Sequence record: MZ375235.1
Reading direction: 5' to 3' (one strand)
DNA: 38,457 nt
Source of the DNA: Escherichia phage T7
A program made the position numbers and the translations under genes. Below the pieces are notes generated by a model. The model ran no database searches, was not told the origin of the DNA, and saw only the letters and a list, made by a program, of their open reading frames with translations. Shown here piece after piece: positions 8,377-20,370 of this stretch; position 1 is the stretch's first letter, and each line of letters starts with the position of its first letter.

Positions 8377-8796
8377 GTGGAACTGCGGGAGAAAATCCTT
8401 GAGCGAATCAAGGTGACTTCCTCTGGGTGTTGGGAGTGGCAGGGCGCTACGAACAATAAAGGGTACGGGCAGGTGTGGTGCAGCAATACCGGAAAGGTTG
8501 TCTACTGTCATCGCGTAATGTCTAATGCTCCGAAAGGTTCTACCGTCCTGCACTCCTGTGATAATCCATTATGTTGTAACCCTGAACACCTATCCATAGG
8601 AACTCCAAAAGAGAACTCCACTGACATGGTAAATAAGGGTCGCTCACACAAGGGGTATAAACTTTCAGACGAAGACGTAATGGCAATCATGGAGTCCAGC
8701 GAGTCCAATGTATCCTTAGCTCGCACCTATGGTGTCTCCCAACAGACTATTTGTGATATACGCAAAGGGAGGCGACATGGCAGGTTACGGCGCTAA
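8377..8796 (+). CDS. 2.8: gp2.8, HNH-endonuclease-like protein
   Basis: ORF track 139 aa with GTG start; contains HxxxH...CDNPLCCNPEHL motif; paralogous to gp7.7. Confidence 0.85.
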   Translation: MELREKILERIKVTSSGCWEWQGATNNKGYGQVWCSNTGKVVYCHRVMSNAPKGSTVLHSCDNPLCCNPEHLSIGTPKENSTDMVNKGRSHKGYKLSDEDVMAIMESSESNVSLARTYGVSQQTICDIRKGRRHGRLRR

Positions 8797-9226
8797 AGGA
8801 ATCCGAAAGGTTGGAGCGTTTCGCTCTGGCCTAGAGGACAAGGTTTCAAAGCAGTTGGAATCAAAAGGTATTAAATTCGAGTATGAAGAGTGGAAAGTGC
8901 CTTATGTAATTCCGGCGAGCAATCACACTTACACTCCAGACTTCTTACTTCCAAACGGTATATTCGTTGAGACAAAGGGTCTGTGGGAAAGCGATGATAG
9001 AAAGAAGCACTTATTAATTAGGGAGCAGCACCCCGAGCTAGACATCCGTATTGTCTTCTCAAGCTCACGTACTAAGTTATACAAAGGTTCTCCAACGTCT
9101 TATGGAGAGTTCTGCGAAAAGCATGGTATTAAGTTCGCTGATAAACTGATACCTGCTGAGTGGATAAAGGAACCCAAGAAGGAGGTCCCCTTTGATAGAT
9201 TAAAAAGGAAAGGAGGAAAGAAATAA
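8777..9226 (+). CDS. 3: Endonuclease I (Holliday junction resolvase)
   Basis: In ORF track frame 8729..9226; start MAGYGAKGIRK at 8777; 149 aa. Confidence 0.95.
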   Translation: MAGYGAKGIRKVGAFRSGLEDKVSKQLESKGIKFEYEEWKVPYVIPASNHTYTPDFLLPNGIFVETKGLWESDDRKKHLLIREQHPELDIRIVFSSSRTKLYKGSPTSYGEFCEKHGIKFADKLIPAEWIKEPKKEVPFDRLKRKGGKK

Positions 9227-9681
9227 TGGCTCGTGTACAGTTTAAACAACGTGAATCTACTGACGCAATCTTTGTTCACTGCTCGGCTACCAAGCCAAGT
9301 CAGAATGTTGGTGTCCGTGAGATTCGCCAGTGGCACAAAGAGCAGGGTTGGCTCGATGTGGGATACCACTTTATCATCAAGCGAGACGGTACTGTGGAGG
9401 CAGGACGAGATGAGATGGCTGTAGGCTCTCACGCTAAGGGTTACAACCACAACTCTATCGGCGTCTGCCTTGTTGGTGGTATCGACGATAAAGGTAAGTT
9501 CGACGCTAACTTTACGCCAGCCCAAATGCAATCCCTTCGCTCACTGCTTGTCACACTGCTGGCTAAGTACGAAGGCGCTGTGCTTCGCGCCCATCATGAG
9601 GTGGCGCCGAAGGCTTGCCCTTCGTTCGACCTTAAGCGTTGGTGGGAGAAGAACGAACTGGTCACTTCTGACCGTGGATAA
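9226..9681 (+). CDS. 3.5: T7 lysozyme (N-acetylmuramoyl-L-alanine amidase; inhibitor of T7 RNAP)
   Basis: ORF track 151 aa MARVQFKQRESTDAIFVHCSATKPSQNVGVREIRQWH... Confidence 0.97.
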   Translation: MARVQFKQRESTDAIFVHCSATKPSQNVGVREIRQWHKEQGWLDVGYHFIIKRDGTVEAGRDEMAVGSHAKGYNHNSIGVCLVGGIDDKGKFDANFTPAQMQSLRSLLVTLLAKYEGAVLRAHHEVAPKACPSFDLKRWWEKNELVTSDRG

Positions 9682-9682
9682 T

Positions 9683-9705
9683 TAATTGAACTCACTAAAG
9701 GGAGA
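9683..9705 (+). promoter_or_regulatory. T7 RNAP promoter phi3.8
   Basis: taattaattgaactcactaaagggagacc; +1 at 9700. Confidence 0.85.
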
Positions 9706-9740
9706 CCACAGCGGTTTCCCTTTGTTCGCATTGGAGGTCA
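9702..9740 (+). promoter_or_regulatory. RNase III processing site R3.8 (approximate)
   Basis: Reference 11203 minus 1480; gagaccacagcggtttccctttgttcgc between phi3.8 and gene 3.8. Confidence 0.4.
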
Positions 9741-9744
9741 AATA

Positions 9745-11843
<2,099 letters not shown>

Positions 11844-11846
<3 letters not shown>

Positions 11847-11866
11847 TACGACTCACTAAAGGAGAC
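11844..11866 (+). promoter_or_regulatory. T7 RNAP promoter phi4.3
   Basis: ctaatacgactcactaaaggagac; +1 at 11861. Confidence 0.9.
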
Positions 11867-11871
11867 ACACC

Positions 11872-12084
11872 ATGTTCAAACTGATTAAGAAGTTAGGCCA
11901 ACTGCTGGTTCGTATGTACAACGTGGAAGCCAAGCGACTGAACGATGAGGCTCGTAAAGAGGCCACACAGTCACGCGCTCTGGCGATTCGCTCCAACGAA
12001 CTGGCTGACAGTGCATCCACTAAAGTTACCGAGGCTGCCCGTGTGGCAAACCAAGCTCAACAGCTTTCCAAATTCTTTGAGTAA
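11872..12084 (+). CDS. 4.3: gp4.3, unknown function
   Basis: ORF track 70 aa. Confidence 0.88.
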   Translation: MFKLIKKLGQLLVRMYNVEAKRLNDEARKEATQSRALAIRSNELADSASTKVTEAARVANQAQQLSKFFE

Positions 12085-12103
12085 TCAAACAGGAGAAACC
12101 ATT

Positions 12104-12373
12104 ATGTCTAACGTAGCTGAAACTATCCGTCTATCCGATACAGCTGACCAGTGGAACCGTCGAGTCCACATCAACGTTCGCAACGGTAAGGCGACTATGG
12201 TTTACCGCTGGAAGGACTCTAAGTCCTCTAAGAATCACACTCAGCGTATGACGTTGACAGATGAGCAAGCACTGCGTCTGGTCAATGCGCTTACCAAAGC
12301 TGCCGTGACAGCAATTCATGAAGCTGGTCGCGTCAATGAAGCTATGGCTATCCTCGACAAGATTGATAACTAA
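12104..12373 (+). CDS. 4.5: gp4.5, unknown function
   Basis: In ORF track frame 11945..12373; start MSNVAETIRLSD at 12104 preceded by RBS aggaga; 89 aa. Confidence 0.88.
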   Translation: MSNVAETIRLSDTADQWNRRVHINVRNGKATMVYRWKDSKSSKNHTQRMTLTDEQALRLVNALTKAAVTAIHEAGRVNEAMAILDKIDN

Positions 12374-12374
12374 G

Positions 12375-12420
12375 AGTGGTATCCTCAAGGTCGCCAAAGT
12401 GGTGGCCTTCATGAATACTA
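12375..12420 (+). promoter_or_regulatory. RNase III processing site R4.7 (approximate)
   Basis: Reference 13892 minus 1480; gagtggtatcctcaaggtcgccaaagtggtggccttcatg has inverted-repeat character. Confidence 0.45.
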
Positions 12421-12440
12421 TTCGACTCACTATAGGAGAT
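12418..12440 (+). promoter_or_regulatory. T7 RNAP promoter phi4.7
   Basis: ctattcgactcactataggagat; +1 at 12435. Confidence 0.9.
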
Positions 12441-12446
12441 ATTACC

Positions 12447-12854
12447 ATGCGTGACCCTAAAGTTATCCAAGCAGAAATCGCTAAACTGGAAGCTGAACTG
12501 GAGGACGTTAAGTACCATGAAGCTAAGACTCGCTCCGCTGTTCACATCTTGAAGAACTTAGGCTGGACTTGGACAAGACAGACTGGCTGGAAGAAACCAG
12601 AAGTTACCAAGCTGAGTCATAAGGTGTTCGATAAGGACACTATGACCCACATCAAGGCTGGTGATTGGGTTAAGGTTGACATGGGAGTTGTTGGTGGATA
12701 CGGCTACGTCCGCTCAGTTAGTGGCAAATATGCACAAGTGTCATACATCACAGGTGTTACTCCACGCGGTGCAATCGTTGCCGATAAGACCAACATGATT
12801 CACACAGGTTTCTTGACAGTTGTTTCATATGAAGAGATTGTTAAGTCACGATAA
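12447..12854 (+). CDS. 4.7: gp4.7, unknown function
   Basis: In ORF track frame 12318..12854; start MRDPKVIQAEI at 12447; 135 aa. Confidence 0.88.
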   Translation: MRDPKVIQAEIAKLEAELEDVKYHEAKTRSAVHILKNLGWTWTRQTGWKKPEVTKLSHKVFDKDTMTHIKAGDWVKVDMGVVGGYGYVRSVSGKYAQVSYITGVTPRGAIVADKTNMIHTGFLTVVSYEEIVKSR

Positions 12855-12872
12855 TCAATAGGAGAAATCAAT

Positions 12873-14987
12873 ATGATCGTTTCTGACATCGAAGCTAACG
12901 CCCTCTTAGAGAGCGTCACTAAGTTCCACTGCGGGGTTATCTACGACTACTCCACCGCTGAGTACGTAAGCTACCGTCCGAGTGACTTCGGTGCGTATCT
13001 GGATGCGCTGGAAGCCGAGGTTGCACGAGGCGGTCTTATTGTGTTCCACAACGGTCACAAGTATGACGTTCCTGCATTGACCAAACTGGCAAAGTTGCAA
13101 TTGAACCGAGAGTTCCACCTTCCTCGTGAGAACTGTATTGACACCCTTGTGTTGTCACGTTTGATTCATTCCAACCTCAAGGACACCGATATGGGTCTTC
13201 TGCGTTCCGGCAAGTTGCCCGGAAAACGCTTTGGGTCTCACGCTTTGGAGGCGTGGGGTTATCGCTTAGGCGAGATGAAGGGTGAATACAAAGACGACTT
13301 TAAGCGTATGCTTGAAGAGCAGGGTGAAGAATACGTTGACGGAATGGAGTGGTGGAACTTCAACGAAGAGATGATGGACTATAACGTTCAGGACGTTGTG
13401 GTAACTAAAGCTCTCCTTGAGAAGCTACTCTCTGACAAACATTACTTCCCTCCTGAGATTGACTTTACGGACGTAGGATACACTACGTTCTGGTCAGAAT
13501 CCCTTGAGGCCGTTGACATTGAACATCGTGCTGCATGGCTGCTCGCTAAACAAGAGCGCAACGGGTTCCCGTTTGACACAAAAGCAATCGAAGAGTTGTA
13601 CGTAGAGTTAGCTGCTCGCCGCTCTGAGTTGCTCCGTAAATTGACCGAAACGTTCGGCTCGTGGTATCAGCCTAAAGGTGGCACTGAGATGTTCTGCCAT
13701 CCGCGAACAGGTAAGCCACTACCTAAATACCCTCGCATTAAGACACCTAAAGTTGGTGGTATCTTTAAGAAGCCTAAGAACAAGGCACAGCGAGAAGGCC
13801 GTGAGCCTTGCGAACTTGATACCCGCGAGTACGTTGCTGGTGCTCCTTACACCCCAGTTGAACATGTTGTGTTTAACCCTTCGTCTCGTGACCACATTCA
13901 GAAGAAACTCCAAGAGGCTGGGTGGGTCCCGACCAAGTACACCGATAAGGGTGCTCCTGTGGTGGACGATGAGGTACTCGAAGGAGTACGTGTAGATGAC
14001 CCTGAGAAGCAAGCCGCTATCGACCTCATTAAAGAGTACTTGATGATTCAGAAGCGAATCGGACAGTCTGCTGAGGGAGACAAAGCATGGCTTCGTTATG
14101 TTGCTGAGGATGGTAAGATTCATGGTTCTGTTAACCCTAATGGAGCAGTTACGGGTCGTGCGACCCATGCGTTCCCAAACCTTGCGCAAATTCCGGGTGT
14201 ACGTTCTCCTTATGGAGAGCAGTGTCGCGCTGCTTTTGGCGCTGAGCACCATTTGGATGGGATAACTGGTAAGCCTTGGGTTCAGGCTGGCATCGACGCA
14301 TCCGGTCTTGAGCTACGCTGCTTGGCTCACTTCATGGCTCGCTTTGATAACGGCGAGTACGCTCACGAGATTCTTAACGGCGACATCCACACTAAGAACC
14401 AGATAGCTGCTGAACTACCTACCCGAGATAACGCTAAGACGTTCATCTATGGGTTCCTCTATGGTGCTGGTGATGAGAAGATTGGACAGATTGTTGGTGC
14501 TGGTAAAGAGCGCGGTAAGGAACTCAAGAAGAAATTCCTTGAGAACACCCCCGCGATTGCAGCACTCCGCGAGTCTATCCAACAGACACTTGTCGAGTCC
14601 TCTCAATGGGTAGCTGGTGAGCAACAAGTCAAGTGGAAACGCCGCTGGATTAAAGGTCTGGATGGTCGTAAGGTACACGTTCGTAGTCCTCACGCTGCCT
14701 TGAATACCCTACTGCAATCTGCTGGTGCTCTCATCTGCAAACTGTGGATTATCAAGACCGAAGAGATGCTCGTAGAGAAAGGCTTGAAGCATGGCTGGGA
14801 TGGGGACTTTGCGTACATGGCATGGGTACATGATGAAATCCAAGTAGGCTGCCGTACCGAAGAGATTGCTCAGGTGGTCATTGAGACCGCACAAGAAGCG
14901 ATGCGCTGGGTTGGAGACCACTGGAACTTCCGGTGTCTTCTGGATACCGAAGGTAAGATGGGTCCTAATTGGGCGATTTGCCACTGA
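12873..14987 (+). CDS. 5: T7 DNA polymerase (family A; 3'-5' exonuclease + polymerase, thioredoxin-binding)
   Basis: ORF track 704 aa [13 protein letters not shown]...; exonuclease motif DIEANAL at N-terminus. Confidence 0.99.
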
Positions 14988-15002
14988 TACAGGAGGCTAC
15001 TC

Positions 15003-15359
15003 ATGAACGAAAGACACTTAACAGGTGCTGCTTCTGAAATGCTAGTAGCCTACAAATTTACCAAAGCTGGGTACACTGTCTATTACCCTATGCTGACTCA
15101 GAGTAAAGAGGACTTGGTTGTATGTAAGGATGGTAAATTTAGTAAGGTTCAGGTTAAAACAGCCACAACGGTTCAAACCAACACAGGAGATGCCAAGCAG
15201 GTTAGGCTAGGTGGATGCGGTAGGTCCGAATATAAGGATGGAGACTTTGACATTCTTGCGGTTGTGGTTGACGAAGATGTGCTTATTTTCACATGGGACG
15301 AAGTAAAAGGTAAGACATCCATGTGTGTCGGCAAGAGAAACAAAGGCATAAAACTATAG
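15003..15359 (+). CDS. 5.3: gp5.3, unknown function (possible nuclease-like fold)
   Basis: ORF track 118 aa. Confidence 0.85.
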   Translation: MNERHLTGAASEMLVAYKFTKAGYTVYYPMLTQSKEDLVVCKDGKFSKVQVKTATTVQTNTGDAKQVRLGGCGRSEYKDGDFDILAVVVDEDVLIFTWDEVKGKTSMCVGKRNKGIKL

Positions 15360-15370
15360 GAGAAATTATT

Positions 15371-15670
15371 ATGGCTATGACAAAGAAATTTAAAGTGTCC
15401 TTCGACGTTACCGCAAAGATGTCGTCTGACGTTCAGGCAATCTTAGAGAAAGATATGCTGCATCTATGTAAGCAGGTCGGCTCAGGTGCGATTGTCCCCA
15501 ATGGTAAACAGAAGGAAATGATTGTCCAGTTCCTGACACACGGTATGGAAGGATTGATGACATTCGTAGTACGTACATCATTTCGTGAGGCCATTAAGGA
15601 CATGCACGAAGAGTATGCAGATAAGGACTCTTTCAAACAATCTCCTGCAACAGTACGGGAGGTGTTCTGA
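15371..15670 (+). CDS. 5.5: gp5.5 (binds host H-NS)
   Basis: In ORF track frame 15323..15670; start MAMTKKFKVSFDV at 15371; 99 aa. Confidence 0.88.
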   Translation: MAMTKKFKVSFDVTAKMSSDVQAILEKDMLHLCKQVGSGAIVPNGKQKEMIVQFLTHGMEGLMTFVVRTSFREAIKDMHEEYADKDSFKQSPATVREVF

Positions 15671-15879
15671 TGTCTGACTACCTGAAAGTGCTGCAAGCAA
15701 TCAAAAGTTGCCCTAAGACTTTCCAGTCCAACTATGTACGGAACAATGCGAGCCTCGTAGCGGAGGCCGCTTCCCGTGGTCACATCTCGTGCCTGACTAC
15801 TAGTGGACGTAACGGTGGCGCTTGGGAAATCACTGCTTCCGGTACTCGCTTTCTGAAACGAATGGGAGGATGTGTCTAA
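15670..15879 (+). CDS. 5.7: gp5.7 (reported inhibitor of host sigma-S RNA polymerase)
   Basis: ORF track 69 aa; start overlaps 5.5 stop. Confidence 0.88.
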   Translation: MSDYLKVLQAIKSCPKTFQSNYVRNNASLVAEAASRGHISCLTTSGRNGGAWEITASGTRFLKRMGGCV

Positions 15880-16037
15880 TGTCTCGTGACCTTGTGACTA
15901 TTCCACGCGATGTGTGGAACGATATACAGGGCTACATCGACTCTCTGGAACGTGAGAACGATAGCCTTAAGAATCAACTAATGGAAGCTGACGAATACGT
16001 AGCGGAACTAGAGGAGAAACTTAATGGCACTTCTTGA
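15879..16037 (+). CDS. 5.9: gp5.9, inhibitor of host RecBCD nuclease
   Basis: ATG at 15879 (MSRDLVTIPRDVWNDIQGYIDSLERENDSLKNQLMEADEYVAELEEKLNGTS); acidic 52 aa. Confidence 0.9.
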   Translation: MSRDLVTIPRDVWNDIQGYIDSLERENDSLKNQLMEADEYVAELEEKLNGTS

Positions 16038-16926
16038 CCTTAAACAATTCTATGAGTTACGTGAAGGCTGCGACGACAAGGGTATCCTTGTGATGGACGG
16101 CGACTGGCTGGTCTTCCAAGCTATGAGTGCTGCTGAGTTTGATGCCTCTTGGGAGGAAGAGATTTGGCACCGATGCTGTGACCACGCTAAGGCCCGTCAG
16201 ATTCTTGAGGATTCCATTAAGTCCTACGAGACCCGTAAGAAGGCTTGGGCAGGTGCTCCAATTGTCCTTGCGTTCACCGATAGTGTTAACTGGCGTAAAG
16301 AACTGGTTGACCCGAACTATAAGGCTAACCGTAAGGCCGTGAAGAAACCTGTAGGGTACTTTGAGTTCCTTGATGCTCTCTTTGAGCGCGAAGAGTTCTA
16401 TTGCATCCGTGAGCCTATGCTTGAGGGTGATGACGTTATGGGAGTTATTGCTTCCAATCCGTCTGCCTTCGGTGCTCGTAAGGCTGTAATCATCTCTTGC
16501 GATAAGGACTTTAAGACCATCCCTAACTGTGACTTCCTGTGGTGTACCACTGGTAACATCCTGACTCAGACCGAAGAGTCCGCTGACTGGTGGCACCTCT
16601 TCCAGACCATCAAGGGTGACATCACTGATGGTTACTCAGGGATTGCTGGATGGGGTGATACCGCCGAGGACTTCTTGAATAACCCGTTCATAACCGAGCC
16701 TAAAACGTCTGTGCTTAAGTCCGGTAAGAACAAAGGCCAAGAGGTTACTAAATGGGTTAAACGCGACCCTGAGCCTCATGAGACGCTTTGGGACTGCATT
16801 AAGTCCATTGGCGCGAAGGCTGGTATGACCGAAGAGGATATTATCAAGCAGGGCCAAATGGCTCGAATCCTACGGTTCAACGAGTACAACTTTATTGACA
16901 AGGAGATTTACCTGTGGAGACCGTAG
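16024..16926 (+). CDS. 6: 5'-3' exonuclease gp6
   Basis: ORF track 300 aa. Confidence 0.97.
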   Translation: MALLDLKQFYELREGCDDKGILVMDGDWLVFQAMSAAEFDASWEEEIWHRCCDHAKARQILEDSIKSYETRKKAWAGAPIVLAFTDSVNWRKELVDPNYKANRKAVKKPVGYFEFLDALFEREEFYCIREPMLEGDDVMGVIASNPSAFGARKAVIISCDKDFKTIPNCDFLWCTTGNILTQTEESADWWHLFQTIKGDITDGYSGIAGWGDTAEDFLNNPFITEPKTSVLKSGKNKGQEVTKWVKRDPEPHETLWDCIKSIGAKAGMTEEDIIKQGQMARILRFNEYNFIDKEIYLWRP

Positions 16927-17027
16927 CGTATATTGGTCTGGGTCTTTGTGTTCTCGGAGTGTGCCTCATTTCGTGGGGCCTTTGGGACTTAGCCAGAATA
17001 ATCAAGTCGTTACACGACACTAAGTGA
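16914..17027 (+). CDS. 6.3: gp6.3, small hydrophobic protein
   Basis: GTG start at 16914 (VETVAYIGLGLCVLGVCLISWGLWDLARIIKSLHDTK), 37 aa; reference 18394-18507 minus 1480. Confidence 0.7.
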   Translation: METVAYIGLGLCVLGVCLISWGLWDLARIIKSLHDTK

Positions 17028-17047
17028 TAAACTCAAGGTCCCTAAAT

Positions 17048-17070
17048 TAATACGACTCACTATAGGGAGA
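17048..17070 (+). promoter_or_regulatory. T7 RNAP class III promoter phi6.5
   Basis: Perfect consensus taatacgactcactatagggaga; +1 at 17065. Confidence 0.95.
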
Positions 17071-17105
17071 TAGGGGCCTTTACGATTATTACTTTAAGAT
17101 TTAAC
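17066..17105 (+). promoter_or_regulatory. RNase III processing site R6.5 (approximate)
   Basis: Reference 18563 minus 1480; gggagataggggcctttacgattattactttaag. Confidence 0.4.
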
Positions 17106-17124
17106 TCTAAGAGGAATCTTTATT

Positions 17125-17379
17125 ATGTTAACACCTATTAACCAATTACTTAAGAACCCTAACGATATTCCAGATGTACCTCGTGCAACCGCTGAGTATC
17201 TACAGGTTCGATTCAACTATGCGTACCTCGAAGCGTCTGGTCATATAGGACTTATGCGTGCTAATGGTTGTAGTGAGGCCCACATCTTGGGTTTCATTCA
17301 GGGCCTACAGTATGCCTCTAACGTCATTGACGAGATTGAGTTACGCAAGGAACAACTAAGAGATGATGGGGAGGATTGA
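17125..17379 (+). CDS. 6.5: gp6.5, unknown function
   Basis: ORF track 84 aa. Confidence 0.88.
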
Positions 17380-17383
17380 CACT

Positions 17384-17650
17384 ATGTGTTTCTCACCGAA
17401 AATTAAAACTCCGAAGATGGATACCAATCAGATTCGAGCCGTTGAGCCAGCGCCTCTGACCCAAGAAGTGTCAAGCGTGGAGTTCGGTGGGTCTTCTGAT
17501 GAGACGGATACCGAGGGCACCGAAGTGTCTGGACGCAAAGGCCTCAAGGTCGAACGTGATGATTCCGTAGCGAAGTCTAAAGCCAGCGGCAATGGCTCCG
17601 CTCGTATGAAATCTTCCATCCGTAAGTCCGCATTTGGAGGTAAGAAGTGA
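17384..17650 (+). CDS. 6.7: gp6.7, virion protein (head/ejected protein)
   Basis: In ORF track frame 17363..17650; start MCFSPKIKTPKMDTNQ at 17384; 88 aa. Confidence 0.88.
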   Translation: MCFSPKIKTPKMDTNQIRAVEPAPLTQEVSSVEFGGSSDETDTEGTEVSGRKGLKVERDDSVAKSKASGNGSARMKSSIRKSAFGGKK

Positions 17651-18051
17651 TGTCTGAGTTCACATGTGTGGAGGCTAAGAGTCGCTTCCGTGCAATCCGG
17701 TGGACTGTGGAACACCTTGGGTTGCCTAAAGGATTCGAAGGACACTTTGTGGGCTACAGCCTCTACGTAGACGAAGTGATGGACATGTCTGGTTGCCGTG
17801 AAGAGTACATTCTGGACTCTACCGGAAAACATGTAGCGTACTTCGCGTGGTGCGTAAGCTGTGACATTCACCACAAAGGAGACATTCTGGATGTAACGTC
17901 CGTTGTCATTAATCCTGAGGCAGACTCTAAGGGCTTACAGCGATTCCTAGCGAAACGCTTTAAGTACCTTGCGGAACTCCACGATTGCGATTGGGTGTCT
18001 CGTTGTAAGCATGAAGGCGAGACAATGCGTGTATACTTTAAGGAGGTATAA
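17650..18051 (+). CDS. 7: gp7, virion-associated protein (host-range related)
   Basis: In ORF track frame 17647..18051; second ATG at 17650; 133 aa. Confidence 0.85.
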   Translation: MSEFTCVEAKSRFRAIRWTVEHLGLPKGFEGHFVGYSLYVDEVMDMSGCREEYILDSTGKHVAYFAWCVSCDIHHKGDILDVTSVVINPEADSKGLQRFLAKRFKYLAELHDCDWVSRCKHEGETMRVYFKEV

Positions 18052-18054
18052 GTT

Positions 18055-18354
18055 ATGGGTAAGAAAGTTAAGAAGGCCGTGAAGAAAGTCACCAAGTCCG
18101 TTAAGAAAGTCGTTAAGGAAGGGGCTCGTCCGGTTAAACAGGTTGCTGGCGGTCTAGCTGGTCTGGCTGGTGGTACTGGTGAAGCACAGATGGTGGAAGT
18201 ACCACAAGCTGCCGCACAGATTGTTGACGTACCTGAGAAAGAGGTTTCCACTGAGGACGAAGCACAGACAGAAAGCGGACGCAAGAAAGCTCGTGCTGGC
18301 GGTAAGAAATCCTTGAGTGTAGCCCATAGCTCCGGTGGCGGTATCAACATTTAA
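18055..18354 (+). CDS. 7.3: gp7.3, Lys/Ala-rich tail-associated protein
   Basis: ORF track 99 aa MGKKVKKAVKKVTKSVKKVVKEGARPVKQ... Confidence 0.92.
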   Translation: MGKKVKKAVKKVTKSVKKVVKEGARPVKQVAGGLAGLAGGTGEAQMVEVPQAAAQIVDVPEKEVSTEDEAQTESGRKKARAGGKKSLSVAHSSGGGINI

Positions 18355-18367
18355 TCAGGAGGTTATC

Positions 18368-18760
18368 GTGGAAGACTGCATTGAATGGACCGGAGGTGTC
18401 AACTCTAAGGGTTATGGTCGTAAGTGGGTTAATGGTAAACTTGTGACTCCACATAGGCACATCTATGAGGAGACATATGGTCCAGTTCCAACAGGAATTG
18501 TGGTGATGCATATCTGCGATAACCCTAGGTGCTATAACATAAAGCACCTTACGCTTGGAACTCCAAAGGATAATTCCGAGGACATGGTTACCAAAGGTAG
18601 ACAGGCTAAAGGAGAGGAACTAAGCAAGAAACTTACAGAGTCAGACGTTCTCGCTATACGCTCTTCAACCTTAAGCCACCGCTCCTTAGGAGAACTGTAT
18701 GGAGTCAGTCAATCAACCATAACGCGAATACTACAGCGTAAGACATGGAGACACATTTAA
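18368..18760 (+). CDS. 7.7: gp7.7, HNH-endonuclease-like protein (paralog of gp2.8)
   Basis: In ORF track frame 18335..18760; GTG start at 18368; motif HICDNPRCYNIKHLTLGTPKDNSEDMVTKGR parallels gp2.8. Confidence 0.85.
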   Translation: MEDCIEWTGGVNSKGYGRKWVNGKLVTPHRHIYEETYGPVPTGIVVMHICDNPRCYNIKHLTLGTPKDNSEDMVTKGRQAKGEELSKKLTESDVLAIRSSTLSHRSLGELYGVSQSTITRILQRKTWRHI

Positions 18761-20370
18761 TGGCTGAGAAACGAACAGGACTTGCGGAGGATGGCGCAAA
18801 GTCTGTCTATGAGCGTTTAAAGAACGACCGTGCTCCCTATGAGACACGCGCTCAGAATTGCGCTCAATATACCATCCCATCATTGTTCCCTAAGGACTCC
18901 GATAACGCCTCTACAGATTATCAAACTCCGTGGCAAGCCGTGGGCGCTCGTGGTCTGAACAATCTAGCCTCTAAGCTCATGCTGGCTCTATTCCCTATGC
19001 AGACTTGGATGCGACTTACTATATCTGAATATGAAGCAAAGCAGTTACTGAGCGACCCCGATGGACTCGCTAAGGTCGATGAGGGCCTCTCGATGGTAGA
19101 GCGTATCATCATGAACTACATTGAGTCTAACAGTTACCGCGTGACTCTCTTTGAGGCTCTCAAACAGTTAGTCGTAGCTGGTAACGTCCTGCTGTACCTA
19201 CCGGAACCGGAAGGGTCAAACTATAATCCCATGAAGCTGTACCGATTGTCTTCTTATGTGGTCCAACGAGACGCATTCGGCAACGTTCTGCAAATGGTGA
19301 CTCGTGACCAGATAGCTTTTGGTGCTCTCCCTGAGGACATCCGTAAGGCTGTAGAAGGTCAAGGTGGTGAGAAGAAAGCTGATGAGACAATCGACGTGTA
19401 CACTCACATCTATCTGGATGAGGACTCAGGTGAATACCTCCGATACGAAGAGGTCGAGGGTATGGAAGTCCAAGGCTCCGATGGGACTTATCCTAAAGAG
19501 GCTTGCCCATACATCCCGATTCGGATGGTCAGACTAGATGGTGAATCCTACGGTCGTTCGTACATTGAGGAATACTTAGGTGACTTACGGTCCCTTGAAA
19601 ATCTCCAAGAGGCTATCGTCAAGATGTCCATGATTAGCTCTAAGGTTATCGGCTTAGTGAATCCTGCTGGTATCACCCAGCCACGCCGACTGACCAAAGC
19701 TCAGACTGGTGACTTCGTTACTGGTCGTCCAGAAGACATCTCGTTCCTCCAACTGGAGAAGCAAGCAGACTTTACTGTAGCTAAAGCCGTAAGTGACGCT
19801 ATCGAGGCTCGCCTTTCGTTTGCCTTTATGTTGAACTCTGCGGTTCAGCGTACAGGTGAACGTGTGACCGCCGAAGAGATTCGGTATGTAGCTTCTGAAC
19901 TTGAAGATACTTTAGGTGGTGTCTACTCTATCCTTTCTCAAGAATTACAATTGCCTCTGGTACGAGTGCTCTTGAAGCAACTACAAGCCACGCAACAGAT
20001 TCCTGAGTTACCTAAGGAAGCCGTAGAGCCAACCATTAGTACAGGTCTGGAAGCAATTGGTCGAGGACAAGACCTTGATAAGCTGGAGCGGTGTGTCACT
20101 GCGTGGGCTGCACTGGCACCTATGCGGGACGACCCTGATATTAACCTTGCGATGATTAAGTTACGTATTGCCAACGCTATCGGTATTGACACTTCTGGTA
20201 TTCTACTCACCGAAGAACAGAAGCAACAGAAGATGGCCCAACAGTCTATGCAAATGGGTATGGATAATGGTGCTGCTGCGCTGGCTCAAGGTATGGCTGC
20301 ACAAGCTACAGCTTCACCTGAGGCTATGGCTGCTGCCGCTGATTCCGTAGGTTTACAGCCGGGAATTTAA
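18760..20370 (+). CDS. 8: Head-to-tail connector (portal) protein gp8
   Basis: In ORF track frame 18745..20370; start MAEKRTGLAEDG at 18760; 536 aa. Confidence 0.97.
   Translation: MAEKRTGLAEDGAKSVYERLKNDRAPYETRAQNCAQYTIPSLFPKDSDNASTDYQTPWQAVGARGLNNLASKLMLALFPMQTWMRLTISEYEAKQLLSDPDGLAKVDEGLSMVERIIMNYIESNSYRVTLFEALKQLVVAGNVLLYLPEPEGSNYNPMKLYRLSSYVVQRDAFGNVLQMVTRDQIAFGALPEDIRKAVEGQGGEKKADETIDVYTHIYLDEDSGEYLRYEEVEGMEVQGSDGTYPKEACPYIPIRMVRLDGESYGRSYIEEYLGDLRSLENLQEAIVKMSMISSKVIGLVNPAGITQPRRLTKAQTGDFVTGRPEDISFLQLEKQADFTVAKAVSDAIEARLSFAFMLNSAVQRTGERVTAEEIRYVASELEDTLGGVYSILSQELQLPLVRVLLKQLQATQQIPELPKEAVEPTISTGLEAIGRGQDLDKLERCVTAWAALAPMRDDPDINLAMIKLRIANAIGIDTSGILLTEEQKQQKMAQQSMQMGMDNGAAALAQGMAAQATASPEAMAAAADSVGLQPGI

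What the first reader, a model, noticed from the sequence alone, without database searches (positions are those of the whole stretch)
8377..8796. gp2.8 and gp7.7 (18368-18760) are clear paralogs carrying an HNH-type nuclease motif
The two small ORFs share colinear motifs visible by eye: W.G..N.KGYG near the N-terminus, HR/H, a Cys/His cluster (2.8: HSCDNPLCCNPEHLSIGTPKENSTDMVNKGRSHKG; 7.7: HICDNPRCYNIKHLTLGTPKDNSEDMVTKGRQAKG) and a C-terminal YGVSQ.TI helix-turn-helix-like segment. This is the signature of HNH homing-endonuclease-like proteins duplicated in the genome, both with GTG starts.
Basis: seen in the sequence. Interest (0 to 1): 0.35.

Follow-up and report, generated by a model that had tools for sequence, protein, structure and literature searches.

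The report
T7 homing-endonuclease genes 2.8 and 7.7
The two small genes are real relatives of each other and are the already-annotated HNH "homing endonuclease" genes 2.8 and 7.7 of bacteriophage T7: optional, selfish DNA-cutting genes that sit between essential genes. This is an ordinary, known feature.

Summary
The window is a lab deletion mutant of phage T7, 4 nt different from MZ375236.1. ORFs 8377-8796 and 18368-18760 both start with GTG and are T7 genes 2.8 and 7.7. Their products share 49% identity over 128 aa (E 3e-36; shuffle z = 50).

Both pass Pfam HNH_3 and fall in phrog_59. A family profile matches I-HmuI across the nuclease and C-terminal helix-turn-helix domains. It also matches the I-PpoI His-Cys motif. 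The catalytic His and Asn and the Cys/Cys/His zinc ligands are conserved.

I add four points:
- gp3.8 is a third, more distant HNH_3 protein.
- The two genes do not look like an in-genome duplication. Each group is monophyletic, but they were never exclusive sisters (0/100 bootstraps).
- Both genes are precise presence/absence insertions. Phages 13a and N30 lack 2.8, and N30, UFV01 and Bas104 lack 7.7.
- Occupancy of the 7.7 site tracks a distinct haplotype of the first ~300 nt of portal gene 8. This is the expected footprint of homing with co-conversion.

RefSeq and a 2025 preprint already call these genes HNH/homing endonucleases, and 7.7 is known to be dispensable. Verdict: confirmed, already known, low interest.

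The parts
8377..8796 (+). T7 gene 2.8, 139 aa, GTG start. HNH (His-Me finger) nuclease domain at about aa 17-92 and a C-terminal three-helix HTH-like domain at about aa 95-134. Predicted catalytic residues are H59 (8551-8553) and N80 (8614-8616). Predicted Zn ligands are C18, C61, C66 and H71.
18368..18760 (+). T7 gene 7.7, 130 aa, GTG start. HNH nuclease domain at about aa 3-82 and a C-terminal HTH at about aa 88-124. Predicted catalytic residues are H48 (18509-18511) and N69 (18572-18574). Predicted Zn ligands are C4, C50, C55 and H60.
9745..10110 (+). T7 gene 3.8, a third and more distant HNH_3 protein (121 aa). It shares only the ~50-aa HNH core, lacks the Cys ligands, and has a different C-terminal domain.
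   Evidence: Pfam HNH_3 56 bits; BLASTP to gp7.7 E 2e-10 and to gp2.8 E 1.5e-6; tblastn of the window finds only these three loci
18357..18362 (+). AGGAGG Shine-Dalgarno. It serves gene 7.7 in T7. In phages without 7.7 (N30) the same element serves gene 8 directly.
8365..8368 (+). GGAG Shine-Dalgarno inside the end of gene 2.5. It serves GTG-2.8 in T7. In 13a and N30 the same TAA-GTG junction starts gene 3.
18760..19053 (+). First ~294 nt of portal gene 8. This haplotype tract is linked to occupancy of the 7.7 site and is the candidate region for the 7.7 target and co-conversion tract.
8777..9226 (+). Gene 3 (endonuclease I), immediately downstream of 2.8 and overlapping it by 20 nt. Its allele is only ~71% identical to those of 13a and N30, while the neighbouring genes 2.5 and 3.5 are 96% and 93% identical.

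Best explanation
Genes 2.8 and 7.7 are two members of one family of free-standing HNH (His-Me finger) homing endonuclease genes. Each has lodged in T7 immediately upstream of a conserved gene: gene 3 for 2.8 and portal gene 8 for 7.7.

Each protein has two parts. The N-terminal part is a beta-beta-alpha-metal nuclease domain. Its general-base His is H59 in gp2.8 and H48 in gp7.7, and its metal-binding Asn is N80 and N69. The domain is stabilised by an I-PpoI-like Cys/Cys/His zinc site. The C-terminal part is a three-helix helix-turn-helix DNA-binding domain, giving the I-HmuI architecture.

The inferred mechanism is as follows. During mixed infection with a related phage that lacks the gene, the enzyme nicks or cuts the empty allele near the insertion point. 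Recombinational repair from the T7 copy then copies in the endonuclease gene plus adjacent sequence.

Both genes take over the ribosome-binding site of the displaced downstream gene. Each also carries a replacement Shine-Dalgarno sequence, or a coupled TAATG junction, in its own 3' end, so the essential neighbour stays expressed.

Shown here: homology, domain content, conserved catalytic residues, precise presence/absence polymorphism, linked flank haplotype, and dispensability. Inferred: actual cleavage, target sites, zinc binding, and present-day homing.
For: Paralogy:
- 49% identity, E 3e-36, shuffle z = 50.

Family:
- HNH_3 scores are above the cut-off.
- Both proteins hit phrog_59.
- The profile matches I-HmuI 1u3e at E 7.7e-6 over residues 33-163, and I-PpoI at E 0.006. 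In that alignment H48 = H75 = H98, N69 = N96 = N119, and C50/C55/H60 = I-PpoI C100/C105/H110.
- H48, C55 and N69 are invariant. C4, H29, C50, D51, N52, N57 and H60 are at least 90% conserved in 87 sequences.
- The AlphaFold model has pLDDT 93.5, with a beta-hairpin plus helix core and three C-terminal helices.
- The top Foldseek hits are I-HmuI and then I-PpoI.

Mobility:
- 13a and N30 have the 2.5 stop codon directly followed by the gene 3 start, with no 2.8.
- N30, UFV01 and Bas104 have 7.3 followed by the SD and then gene 8, with no 7.7.
- The first 100 codons of gene 8 differ at 56 nt between T7 and N30 (43 synonymous codon changes, 6 amino-acid changes). T7 and YpP-R differ at 0 nt there. 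Beyond ~300 nt all genomes are 85-100% alike per 100 nt, regardless of occupancy.
- 7.7 is 99.7% identical between T7 and YpP-R, while the flanks further out are 86-99%.
- 2.8 is 91% identical between T7 and a metagenomic phage whose flanking genes are 81.5%, 68% and 79.6% identical.
- Divergent family members occupy the same pre-portal site in ESh2, C5, Katbat and fPS-53.
- The family occurs in about 1500 phage records at many genome positions.

Dispensability:
- Lab mutant T7_280L has a 369-bp deletion of 7.7.
- Published deletions exist (PMC12153263, PMC9825161, bioRxiv 10.1101/2025.09.07.674715).
Against: - No nuclease assay, cleavage-site map or homing cross for gp2.8 or gp7.7 turned up in the searchable literature.
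- gp2.8 passes HNH_3 by only 1.3 bits.
- Foldseek E-values are weak (0.011, TM 0.45).
- At the 2.8 site the flank signal is less clean. T7's gene 3 allele is not shared with other 2.8-carrying phages, and gene 3 is divergent in every comparison (68-75%).
- The haplotype link at gene 8 rests on seven genomes, which are not phylogenetically independent.
- Flank divergence could reflect ordinary mosaic recombination with boundaries at these genes rather than endonuclease-driven conversion.
Confidence: 0.8

Rival explanations
1. The genes are retained mainly because they benefit the phage as anti-defence factors, independently of nuclease activity. They would attenuate a DNA-break-sensing host system such as GAPS4, rather than acting as selfish homing elements.
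For: A T7 mutant lacking 2.8, 7.7 and 3.8 is viable but is outcompeted by wild type only when GAPS4 is active. Catalytically dead gp3.8 (H34A) alone relieves GAPS4 defence (bioRxiv 10.1101/2025.09.07.674715).
Against: The direct test was done only with gp3.8. The individual contributions of 2.8 and 7.7 were not separated. The catalytic His and Asn are invariant across the family, which argues for selection on nuclease activity. Close relatives do well without these genes. This role is compatible with homing rather than a replacement for it.
Confidence: 0.3
2. Gene 7.7 arose from gene 2.8, or the reverse, by duplication within the T7 lineage.
For: Of the three HNH proteins in T7, these two are each other's best match within the genome, and they share the full two-domain architecture.
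Against: - Nucleotide identity is only 53%, and only 25 of 63 identical residues share the third codon base.
- Several proteins from other phages are as close or closer to each: up to 52% to gp7.7 and 52.7% to gp2.8, against 50.4% to each other on the same columns.
- The 2.8 and 7.7 groups are each well supported (98% and 96%) but never form an exclusive pair (0/100 and 0/200 NJ bootstraps).
- Close relatives carry one gene without the other. For example, YpP-R and C5 have 7.7, and Berlinvirus phages have 2.8.
Confidence: 0.07
3. gp7.7, encoded right next to the portal gene, is a packaging-associated HNH protein of the HK97 gp74 type and assists terminase.
For: It sits immediately upstream of portal gene 8. 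Family members sit at the same place in Katbat and fPS-53.
Against: 7.7 is dispensable. It is absent from close relatives with the same packaging genes. It matches HNH_3 and I-HmuI with an HTH domain rather than the packaging-type HNH. Its paralogue sits among DNA-metabolism genes.
Confidence: 0.02
4. The proteins are decayed, catalytically dead relics that now only bind DNA or do nothing.
For: Homing endonuclease genes that are fixed in a population often degenerate. gp2.8 only just passes HNH_3. Gene 2.8 is not even annotated in MZ375236.1.
Against: The ORFs are intact. All catalytic and zinc-ligand positions are conserved in both proteins and in their orthologues at 63-99% identity. The model is confident. 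2.8 is better conserved than its flanks in one independent genome.
Confidence: 0.1

Closest known systems
I-HmuI (Bacillus phage SPO1 intron-encoded HNH homing endonuclease, PDB 1U3E)
   Same: It has the same two-part architecture: an N-terminal HNH nuclease followed by a C-terminal helix-turn-helix. The family profile aligns to residues 33-163 at E 7.7e-6, and the catalytic H75 and N96 match the invariant H48 and N69. It is the top Foldseek hit.
   Different: I-HmuI is intron-encoded, whereas 2.8 and 7.7 are free-standing between genes. I-HmuI lacks the Cys/Cys/His zinc site, with N87 where gp7.7 has H60. Sequence identity is about 18%. I-HmuI is a nickase; the activity of gp2.8 and gp7.7 has not been tested.
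I-PpoI (His-Cys box homing endonuclease)
   Same: The motif H-x-C-(D/H)-N-x-R-C-x-N-P-x-H-L...D-N aligns residue for residue: H98, C100, C105, H110 and N119. Pfam zf-His_Me_endon gives a near-threshold hit of 26.2 bits against a cut-off of 27 for gp2.8. By established knowledge of I-PpoI, these residues are the general base, the first zinc site and the Mg ligand.
   Different: There is no second zinc site and no I-PpoI dimerisation or C-terminal region. DNA binding is by an HTH domain instead. The Pfam score is below the curated cut-off for both proteins.
T7 gp3.8 and other HNH_3 free-standing endonucleases of T7-like phages
   Same: They share the same Pfam family, the same genome, the same sporadic distribution and the same dispensability. 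They are grouped together as 'three homing endonucleases' in bioRxiv 10.1101/2025.09.07.674715.
   Different: gp3.8 shares only the ~50-aa core (34-41% identity), has no Cys ligands, has a different C-terminal domain, and falls in a different PHROG (phrog_4578 against phrog_59).
T4 free-standing homing endonucleases (Seg/Mob, e.g. SegG, MobE)
   Same: They are also intergenic, optional, absent from close relatives, and linked to co-converted flanking sequence next to conserved genes. This comparison draws on established knowledge; see also the reference list of PMC10448857.
   Different: Seg proteins use the GIY-YIG fold. For the T4 enzymes, homing and marker exclusion have been shown experimentally, which is not the case for T7 gp2.8 and gp7.7.

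Membership tests
Pfam HNH_3 (PF13392) / His-Me finger nucleases | Score above the curated gathering threshold (24.8 bits) | tested here: met
   gp2.8 scores 26.1 bits (marginal) and gp7.7 scores 49.8 bits. Precomputed PF13392 is on most homologues.
Pfam HNH_3 (PF13392) / His-Me finger nucleases | General-base His and metal-binding Asn/His at the canonical positions | tested here: met
   H48 and N69 (gp7.7), equivalent to H59 and N80 (gp2.8), are invariant in 87 sequences. They align to I-HmuI H75 and N96 and to I-PpoI H98 and N119.
Pfam HNH_3 (PF13392) / His-Me finger nucleases | Beta-beta-alpha-metal fold | tested here: met
   The AlphaFold2 model of gp7.7 has pLDDT 93.5, with strands 45-48 and 61-64 followed by helix 66-75. 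The best Foldseek hits are I-HmuI and I-PpoI, but E-values are weak at 0.011-0.2. This is a prediction only.
Pfam HNH_3 (PF13392) / His-Me finger nucleases | Divalent-metal-dependent DNA cleavage | not testable with these tools
   No assay of gp2.8 or gp7.7 was found in the searchable literature.
Free-standing homing endonuclease gene | Optional gene, present or absent at a precise site among closely related genomes, and not inside an intron or intein | tested here: met
   The 2.8 site is empty in 13a and N30. The 7.7 site is empty in N30, UFV01 and Bas104. Both insertions are intergenic.
Free-standing homing endonuclease gene | Nuclease domain joined to a separate DNA-binding domain | tested here: met
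   Three C-terminal helices appear in the model. There are sub-threshold HTH Pfam hits. The profile aligns to the I-HmuI HTH and to Xre/HipB-type HTH proteins.
Free-standing homing endonuclease gene | Flanking sequence co-inherited with the gene (co-conversion footprint, resistant allele) | tested here: met
   For 7.7, the first ~294 nt of gene 8 form two haplotypes that track site occupancy in seven genomes. For 2.8, gene 3 diverges sharply from the empty-site phages, but that allele is not shared among carriers, so the result there is inconclusive.
Free-standing homing endonuclease gene | Cleavage of the empty allele and super-Mendelian inheritance in mixed infection | not testable with these tools
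   This requires enzyme assays and phage crosses.
His-Cys box endonucleases (I-PpoI; Pfam zf-His_Me_endon PF05551) | Score above the curated threshold (27 bits) and both zinc sites present | tested here: not met
   Scores are 26.2 bits (gp2.8) and 17.4 bits (gp7.7), below 27. Only the first zinc-site ligands align, C100, C105 and H110. The proteins work like this family in the core but are not filed as members.
Packaging-associated HNH proteins (HK97 gp74 type) | Required for terminase-dependent genome maturation | tested here: not met
   7.7 deletions are viable. The gene is absent from close relatives.

The most novel reading that the evidence does not exclude
gp7.7 is a currently active homing endonuclease whose target lies in the first ~300 nt of the portal gene of Teseptimaviruses that lack 7.7. 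gp2.8 likewise targets the 2.5/3 junction or gene 3. The pre-portal site would then be a contested landing pad where at least three divergent alleles replace one another while sharing one resistant portal haplotype: T7-type, C5-type (67% nt) and ESh2-type (52% nt). These enzymes would drive marker exclusion and shape recombination boundaries among T7-like phages. To my knowledge this has not been shown experimentally for T7.
Probability: 0.5. Interest if true: 0.35.

Novelty: already known. Interest (0 to 1): 0.12.

Why it matters
It matters little for discovery. T7 genes 2.8 and 7.7 are already annotated as (HNH) endonucleases in RefSeq, and a 2025 preprint treats them as homing endonucleases.

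The practical value is modest:
- The record behind this window leaves 2.8 unannotated and gives 7.7 an over-long start.
- The flank analysis gives concrete, testable target regions for two uncharacterised T7 enzymes.
- These loci are used as safe insertion sites in engineered T7.
- They may affect competition between co-infecting T7-like phages and interaction with break-sensing host defences.

Tried and rejected
- **Single-sequence PDB searches.** Neither protein gave a meaningful hit. Only the family profile reached I-HmuI and I-PpoI.
- **gp5.3 as a further paralogue.** I recalled it as HNH-like, but it is a PD-(D/E)XK_5 protein with no similarity to the others, so I dropped it.
- **In-genome duplication.** Tested by NJ bootstrap and rejected. 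The first run produced a NaN warning from the distance cap, so I repeated it with a safe cap and got the same result.
- **Packaging-HNH role for 7.7.** Rejected because the gene is dispensable.
- **Literature.** Searches for enzymology of gp2.8 and gp7.7 found none. PMC3428280 and PMC10448857 gave only general context. The accession prefix MZ375 does not occur in the main text of PMC9825161, so linking this record to that study is only a guess.
- **Shared gene 3 haplotype among 2.8 carriers.** Looked for and not found.
- **Not run.** I did not run a second structure model (gp2.8), the BFVD fold search or the 1.84-billion-protein search, because the identification was already secure.

Full report
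**Identity of the window.** A 13-kb stretch (7000-20000) is 100% identical to many phage T7 records, including MZ375236.1, 'Mutant Escherichia phage T7 clone T7_20S', which has the same length as the window, 38457 bp. The window differs from that record at only four positions (162, 3925, 24484, 33615), none in the genes of interest. Coordinates in this region are offset by +1480 from the reference genome NC_001604. The offset comes from an early-region deletion.

**Observation.** ORF 8377-8796 (+, GTG, 139 aa) is T7 gene 2.8. ORF 18368-18760 (+, GTG, 130 aa) is T7 gene 7.7.
- The quoted motifs are all present.
- BLASTP gives 49% identity over 128 aa, E 3e-36.
- Against 2000 shuffles the local alignment score is 278 versus 28.8 +/- 4.9, z = 50.
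- The segment before the catalytic His (z = 12) and the C-terminal segment (z = 15) are each significant alone, so homology spans the whole length.
- The GTG at 18368 follows AGGAGG by 5 nt. The upstream in-frame GTG at 18335, used in MZ375236.1, has no such site and overlaps the end of gene 7.3 by 20 nt (7.3 ends at 18354).
- The GTG at 8377 abuts the TAA of gene 2.5.

**What the proteins are.**
- Both exceed the Pfam HNH_3 gathering score: 26.1 bits (marginal) and 49.8 bits against 24.8.
- Both also give near- or sub-threshold hits to zf-His_Me_endon, the I-PpoI zinc loop, and weak HTH hits in the C-terminal ~40 residues.
- Both fall in phrog_59, 'HNH endonuclease'.
- Single-sequence searches of the PDB found nothing.
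- A profile of 87 family members (A1) matched I-HmuI (1u3e) at E 7.7e-6 across residues 33-163, covering the nuclease and the C-terminal helix-turn-helix. It matched I-PpoI at E 0.006 across the His-Cys motif.

**Residue mapping.** Counting residues in the alignments gives these equivalences.

| Role | gp7.7 | gp2.8 | I-HmuI | I-PpoI |
|---|---|---|---|---|
| General base | H48 | H59 | H75 | H98 |
| Metal ligand | N69 | N80 | N96 | N119 |
| Zinc site ligand | C50 | C61 | – | C100 |
| Zinc site ligand | C55 | C66 | – | C105 |
| Zinc site ligand | H60 | H71 | N87 (no zinc) | H110 |

By established knowledge of I-PpoI, C100, C105 and H110 form its first zinc site together with C41. The conserved N-terminal Cys (C4 in gp7.7, C18 in gp2.8) is the natural fourth ligand; this is inference. 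H48, C55 and N69 are invariant, and C4, H29, R30, C50, D51, N52, N57 and H60 are at least 90% conserved.

**Predicted structure.** The AlphaFold2 model of gp7.7 is confident (pLDDT 93.5). It shows a beta-hairpin plus helix core and three C-terminal helices. Its best PDB matches are I-HmuI (probability 0.98, E 0.011) and then I-PpoI. HTH proteins match the tail.

**Other nucleases in the window.** A six-frame search of the window finds exactly three HNH_3 loci: 2.8, 7.7 and 3.8 (9745-10110). gp3.8 scores 56 bits on HNH_3. It shares only the ~50-aa core with the other two, lacks the Cys ligands, and belongs to another PHROG. gp5.3 is a PD-(D/E)XK protein and is unrelated.

**Duplication or two insertions?**
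- The genes are 53% identical at the nucleotide level.
- Orthologue groups are clear: gp7.7-like at 71-98% identity and gp2.8-like at 63-99%.
- In NJ bootstrap trees the groups have 96% and 98% support, but they never form an exclusive pair (0/100, and 0/200 in an earlier run).
- Several proteins from other phages are as close to each as they are to one another, at ~50-53% identity.
- The data favour two independent arrivals of members of one family, not a duplication inside T7.
- Caveats: the alignment is short, the method is NJ only, and homologue sampling was limited by the search tool.

**Mobility evidence at the 2.8 site.**
- In phages 13a and N30 the TAA of gene 2.5 is followed directly by the GTG of gene 3. 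In T7 the same TAA-GTG junction starts gene 2.8.
- Gene 3 then starts 400 nt later, at 8777, from an SD embedded in the end of 2.8.
- T7 versus 13a or N30 is 96% identical in gene 2.5, ~71% in gene 3 and 93-94% in gene 3.5.
- A metagenomic T7-like phage (L017) carries 2.8 at 91% nucleotide identity, while its flanking genes are 81.5%, 68% and 79.6% identical to T7. The endonuclease gene is thus better conserved than its surroundings, as expected after horizontal transfer.
- However, T7's gene 3 allele is not shared by other carriers, and gene 3 is divergent in every comparison. A co-conversion reading at this site is only suggestive.

**Mobility evidence at the 7.7 site.**
- N30, UFV01 and Bas104 have 7.3, then TAA, then TCAGGAGGTGACA, then the ATG of gene 8. 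T7 has the same SD followed by GTG-7.7, and 7.7 ends in a TAATG overlap with gene 8.
- The first ~294 nt of gene 8 fall into two haplotypes that track occupancy. T7, YpP-R, C5 and ESh2 (occupied) are 91-100% alike. N30, UFV01 and Bas104 (empty) are 90-99% alike. Between the two groups identity is 77-87%.
- Beyond ~300 nt all seven genomes are 85-100% alike per 100 nt, regardless of occupancy.
- T7 and N30 differ at 56 nt in codons 1-100 (43 synonymous codon changes, 6 amino-acid changes) but at only 10 nt in codons 101-200. T7 and YpP-R differ at 0 nt in codons 1-100.
- 7.7 itself is 99.7% identical between T7 and YpP-R.
- The same site holds a 67%-identical allele in C5 and a 133-aa family member with 48% protein identity in ESh2.
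- Related members also sit before the portal gene in Katbat and fPS-53.
- This is the footprint expected of a free-standing homing endonuclease that cuts empty alleles in the 5' part of the neighbouring gene and is copied in together with a resistant flank. It is indirect evidence from seven related genomes.

**Distribution and dispensability.**
- tblastn finds family members in 1463 (gp2.8) and 1620 (gp7.7) phage records, across many host genera and at many genome positions.
- The lab mutant T7_280L carries a 369-bp deletion of 7.7.
- Published work lists gp7.7 as removable (PMC9825161) and uses its locus as a payload site (PMC12153263).
- A T7 strain lacking 2.8, 7.7 and 3.8, described as 'three homing endonucleases', is viable. 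It loses to wild type only in hosts carrying the break-sensing GAPS4 defence (bioRxiv 10.1101/2025.09.07.674715).
- In that study the direct, nuclease-independent anti-defence effect was shown for gp3.8 only.

**Comparison with the known, and verdict.**
- RefSeq annotates 2.8 as 'endonuclease' and 7.7 as 'HNH endonuclease'. The literature already treats them as homing endonucleases. The finding is correct but already known.
- The proteins work like I-HmuI in architecture and like I-PpoI in the zinc-stabilised core. They are members of HNH_3 and phrog_59, and I do not file them under the His-Cys box family, because the Pfam threshold and the second zinc site are not met.
- Still open are the actual cleavage activity, the target sites, zinc binding, and whether homing is ongoing.
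- Interest is low.

Noticed in passing
window 1244-1256 (junction); corresponds to NC_001604 about 1257-2723: Relative to wild-type T7 the window lacks about 1.48 kb. The deletion removes the 3' end of gene 0.3, genes 0.4-0.6, and the 5' two-thirds of kinase gene 0.7. A 13-nt stretch is shared by both breakpoints. The result is a 0.3-0.7 fusion ORF (925-1620), annotated 'protein kinase' in MZ375236.1.
   Followed up: partly
window 8377-8796 and 18335-18760 as annotated in MZ375236.1: The GenBank record that matches the window does not annotate gene 2.8 at all. It gives gene 7.7 an 11-codon-longer start (18335) that lacks a Shine-Dalgarno site. It also starts gene 3 at 8729 instead of the SD-preceded ATG at 8777 that aligns with the gene 3 start in 13a.
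   Followed up: yes
window 9745-10110 (gene 3.8); L003 3171-3653; L014 3110-3371: The gene 3.8 locus is also polymorphic. T7 has a 121-aa HNH_3 protein, 13a has a 160-aa gp3.8 in sequence that aligns poorly with T7 (37-44% identity), and N30 has only a ~260-bp gap between lysozyme and primase/helicase.
   Followed up: partly
window 15003-15359 (gene 5.3): gp5.3 is annotated 'hypothetical' but matches Pfam PDDEXK_5 (PD-(D/E)XK endonuclease) at 42 bits against a cut-off of 26.1. It may be a fourth small nuclease gene of a different fold next to the DNA polymerase gene.
   Followed up: partly
L010 (Shigella phage ESh2) 1323-1724: In this 'UNVERIFIED' record, no feature is annotated in this stretch. 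An intact 133-aa HNH_3+HTH ORF, 48% identical to gp7.7, occupies the pre-portal site with a different upstream junction (ATGA overlap with 7.3). It has the same C-terminal KTWRHI and the T7-type gene 8 5' haplotype.
   Followed up: partly
window 18368-18736 versus L005 (MZ375287.1, T7_280L): The lab deletion of gene 7.7 runs from the start codon to 24 nt before the stop. It is flanked by the short similarity GAAGAC/TAAGAC and keeps the SD and the gene 8 junction intact.
   Followed up: no
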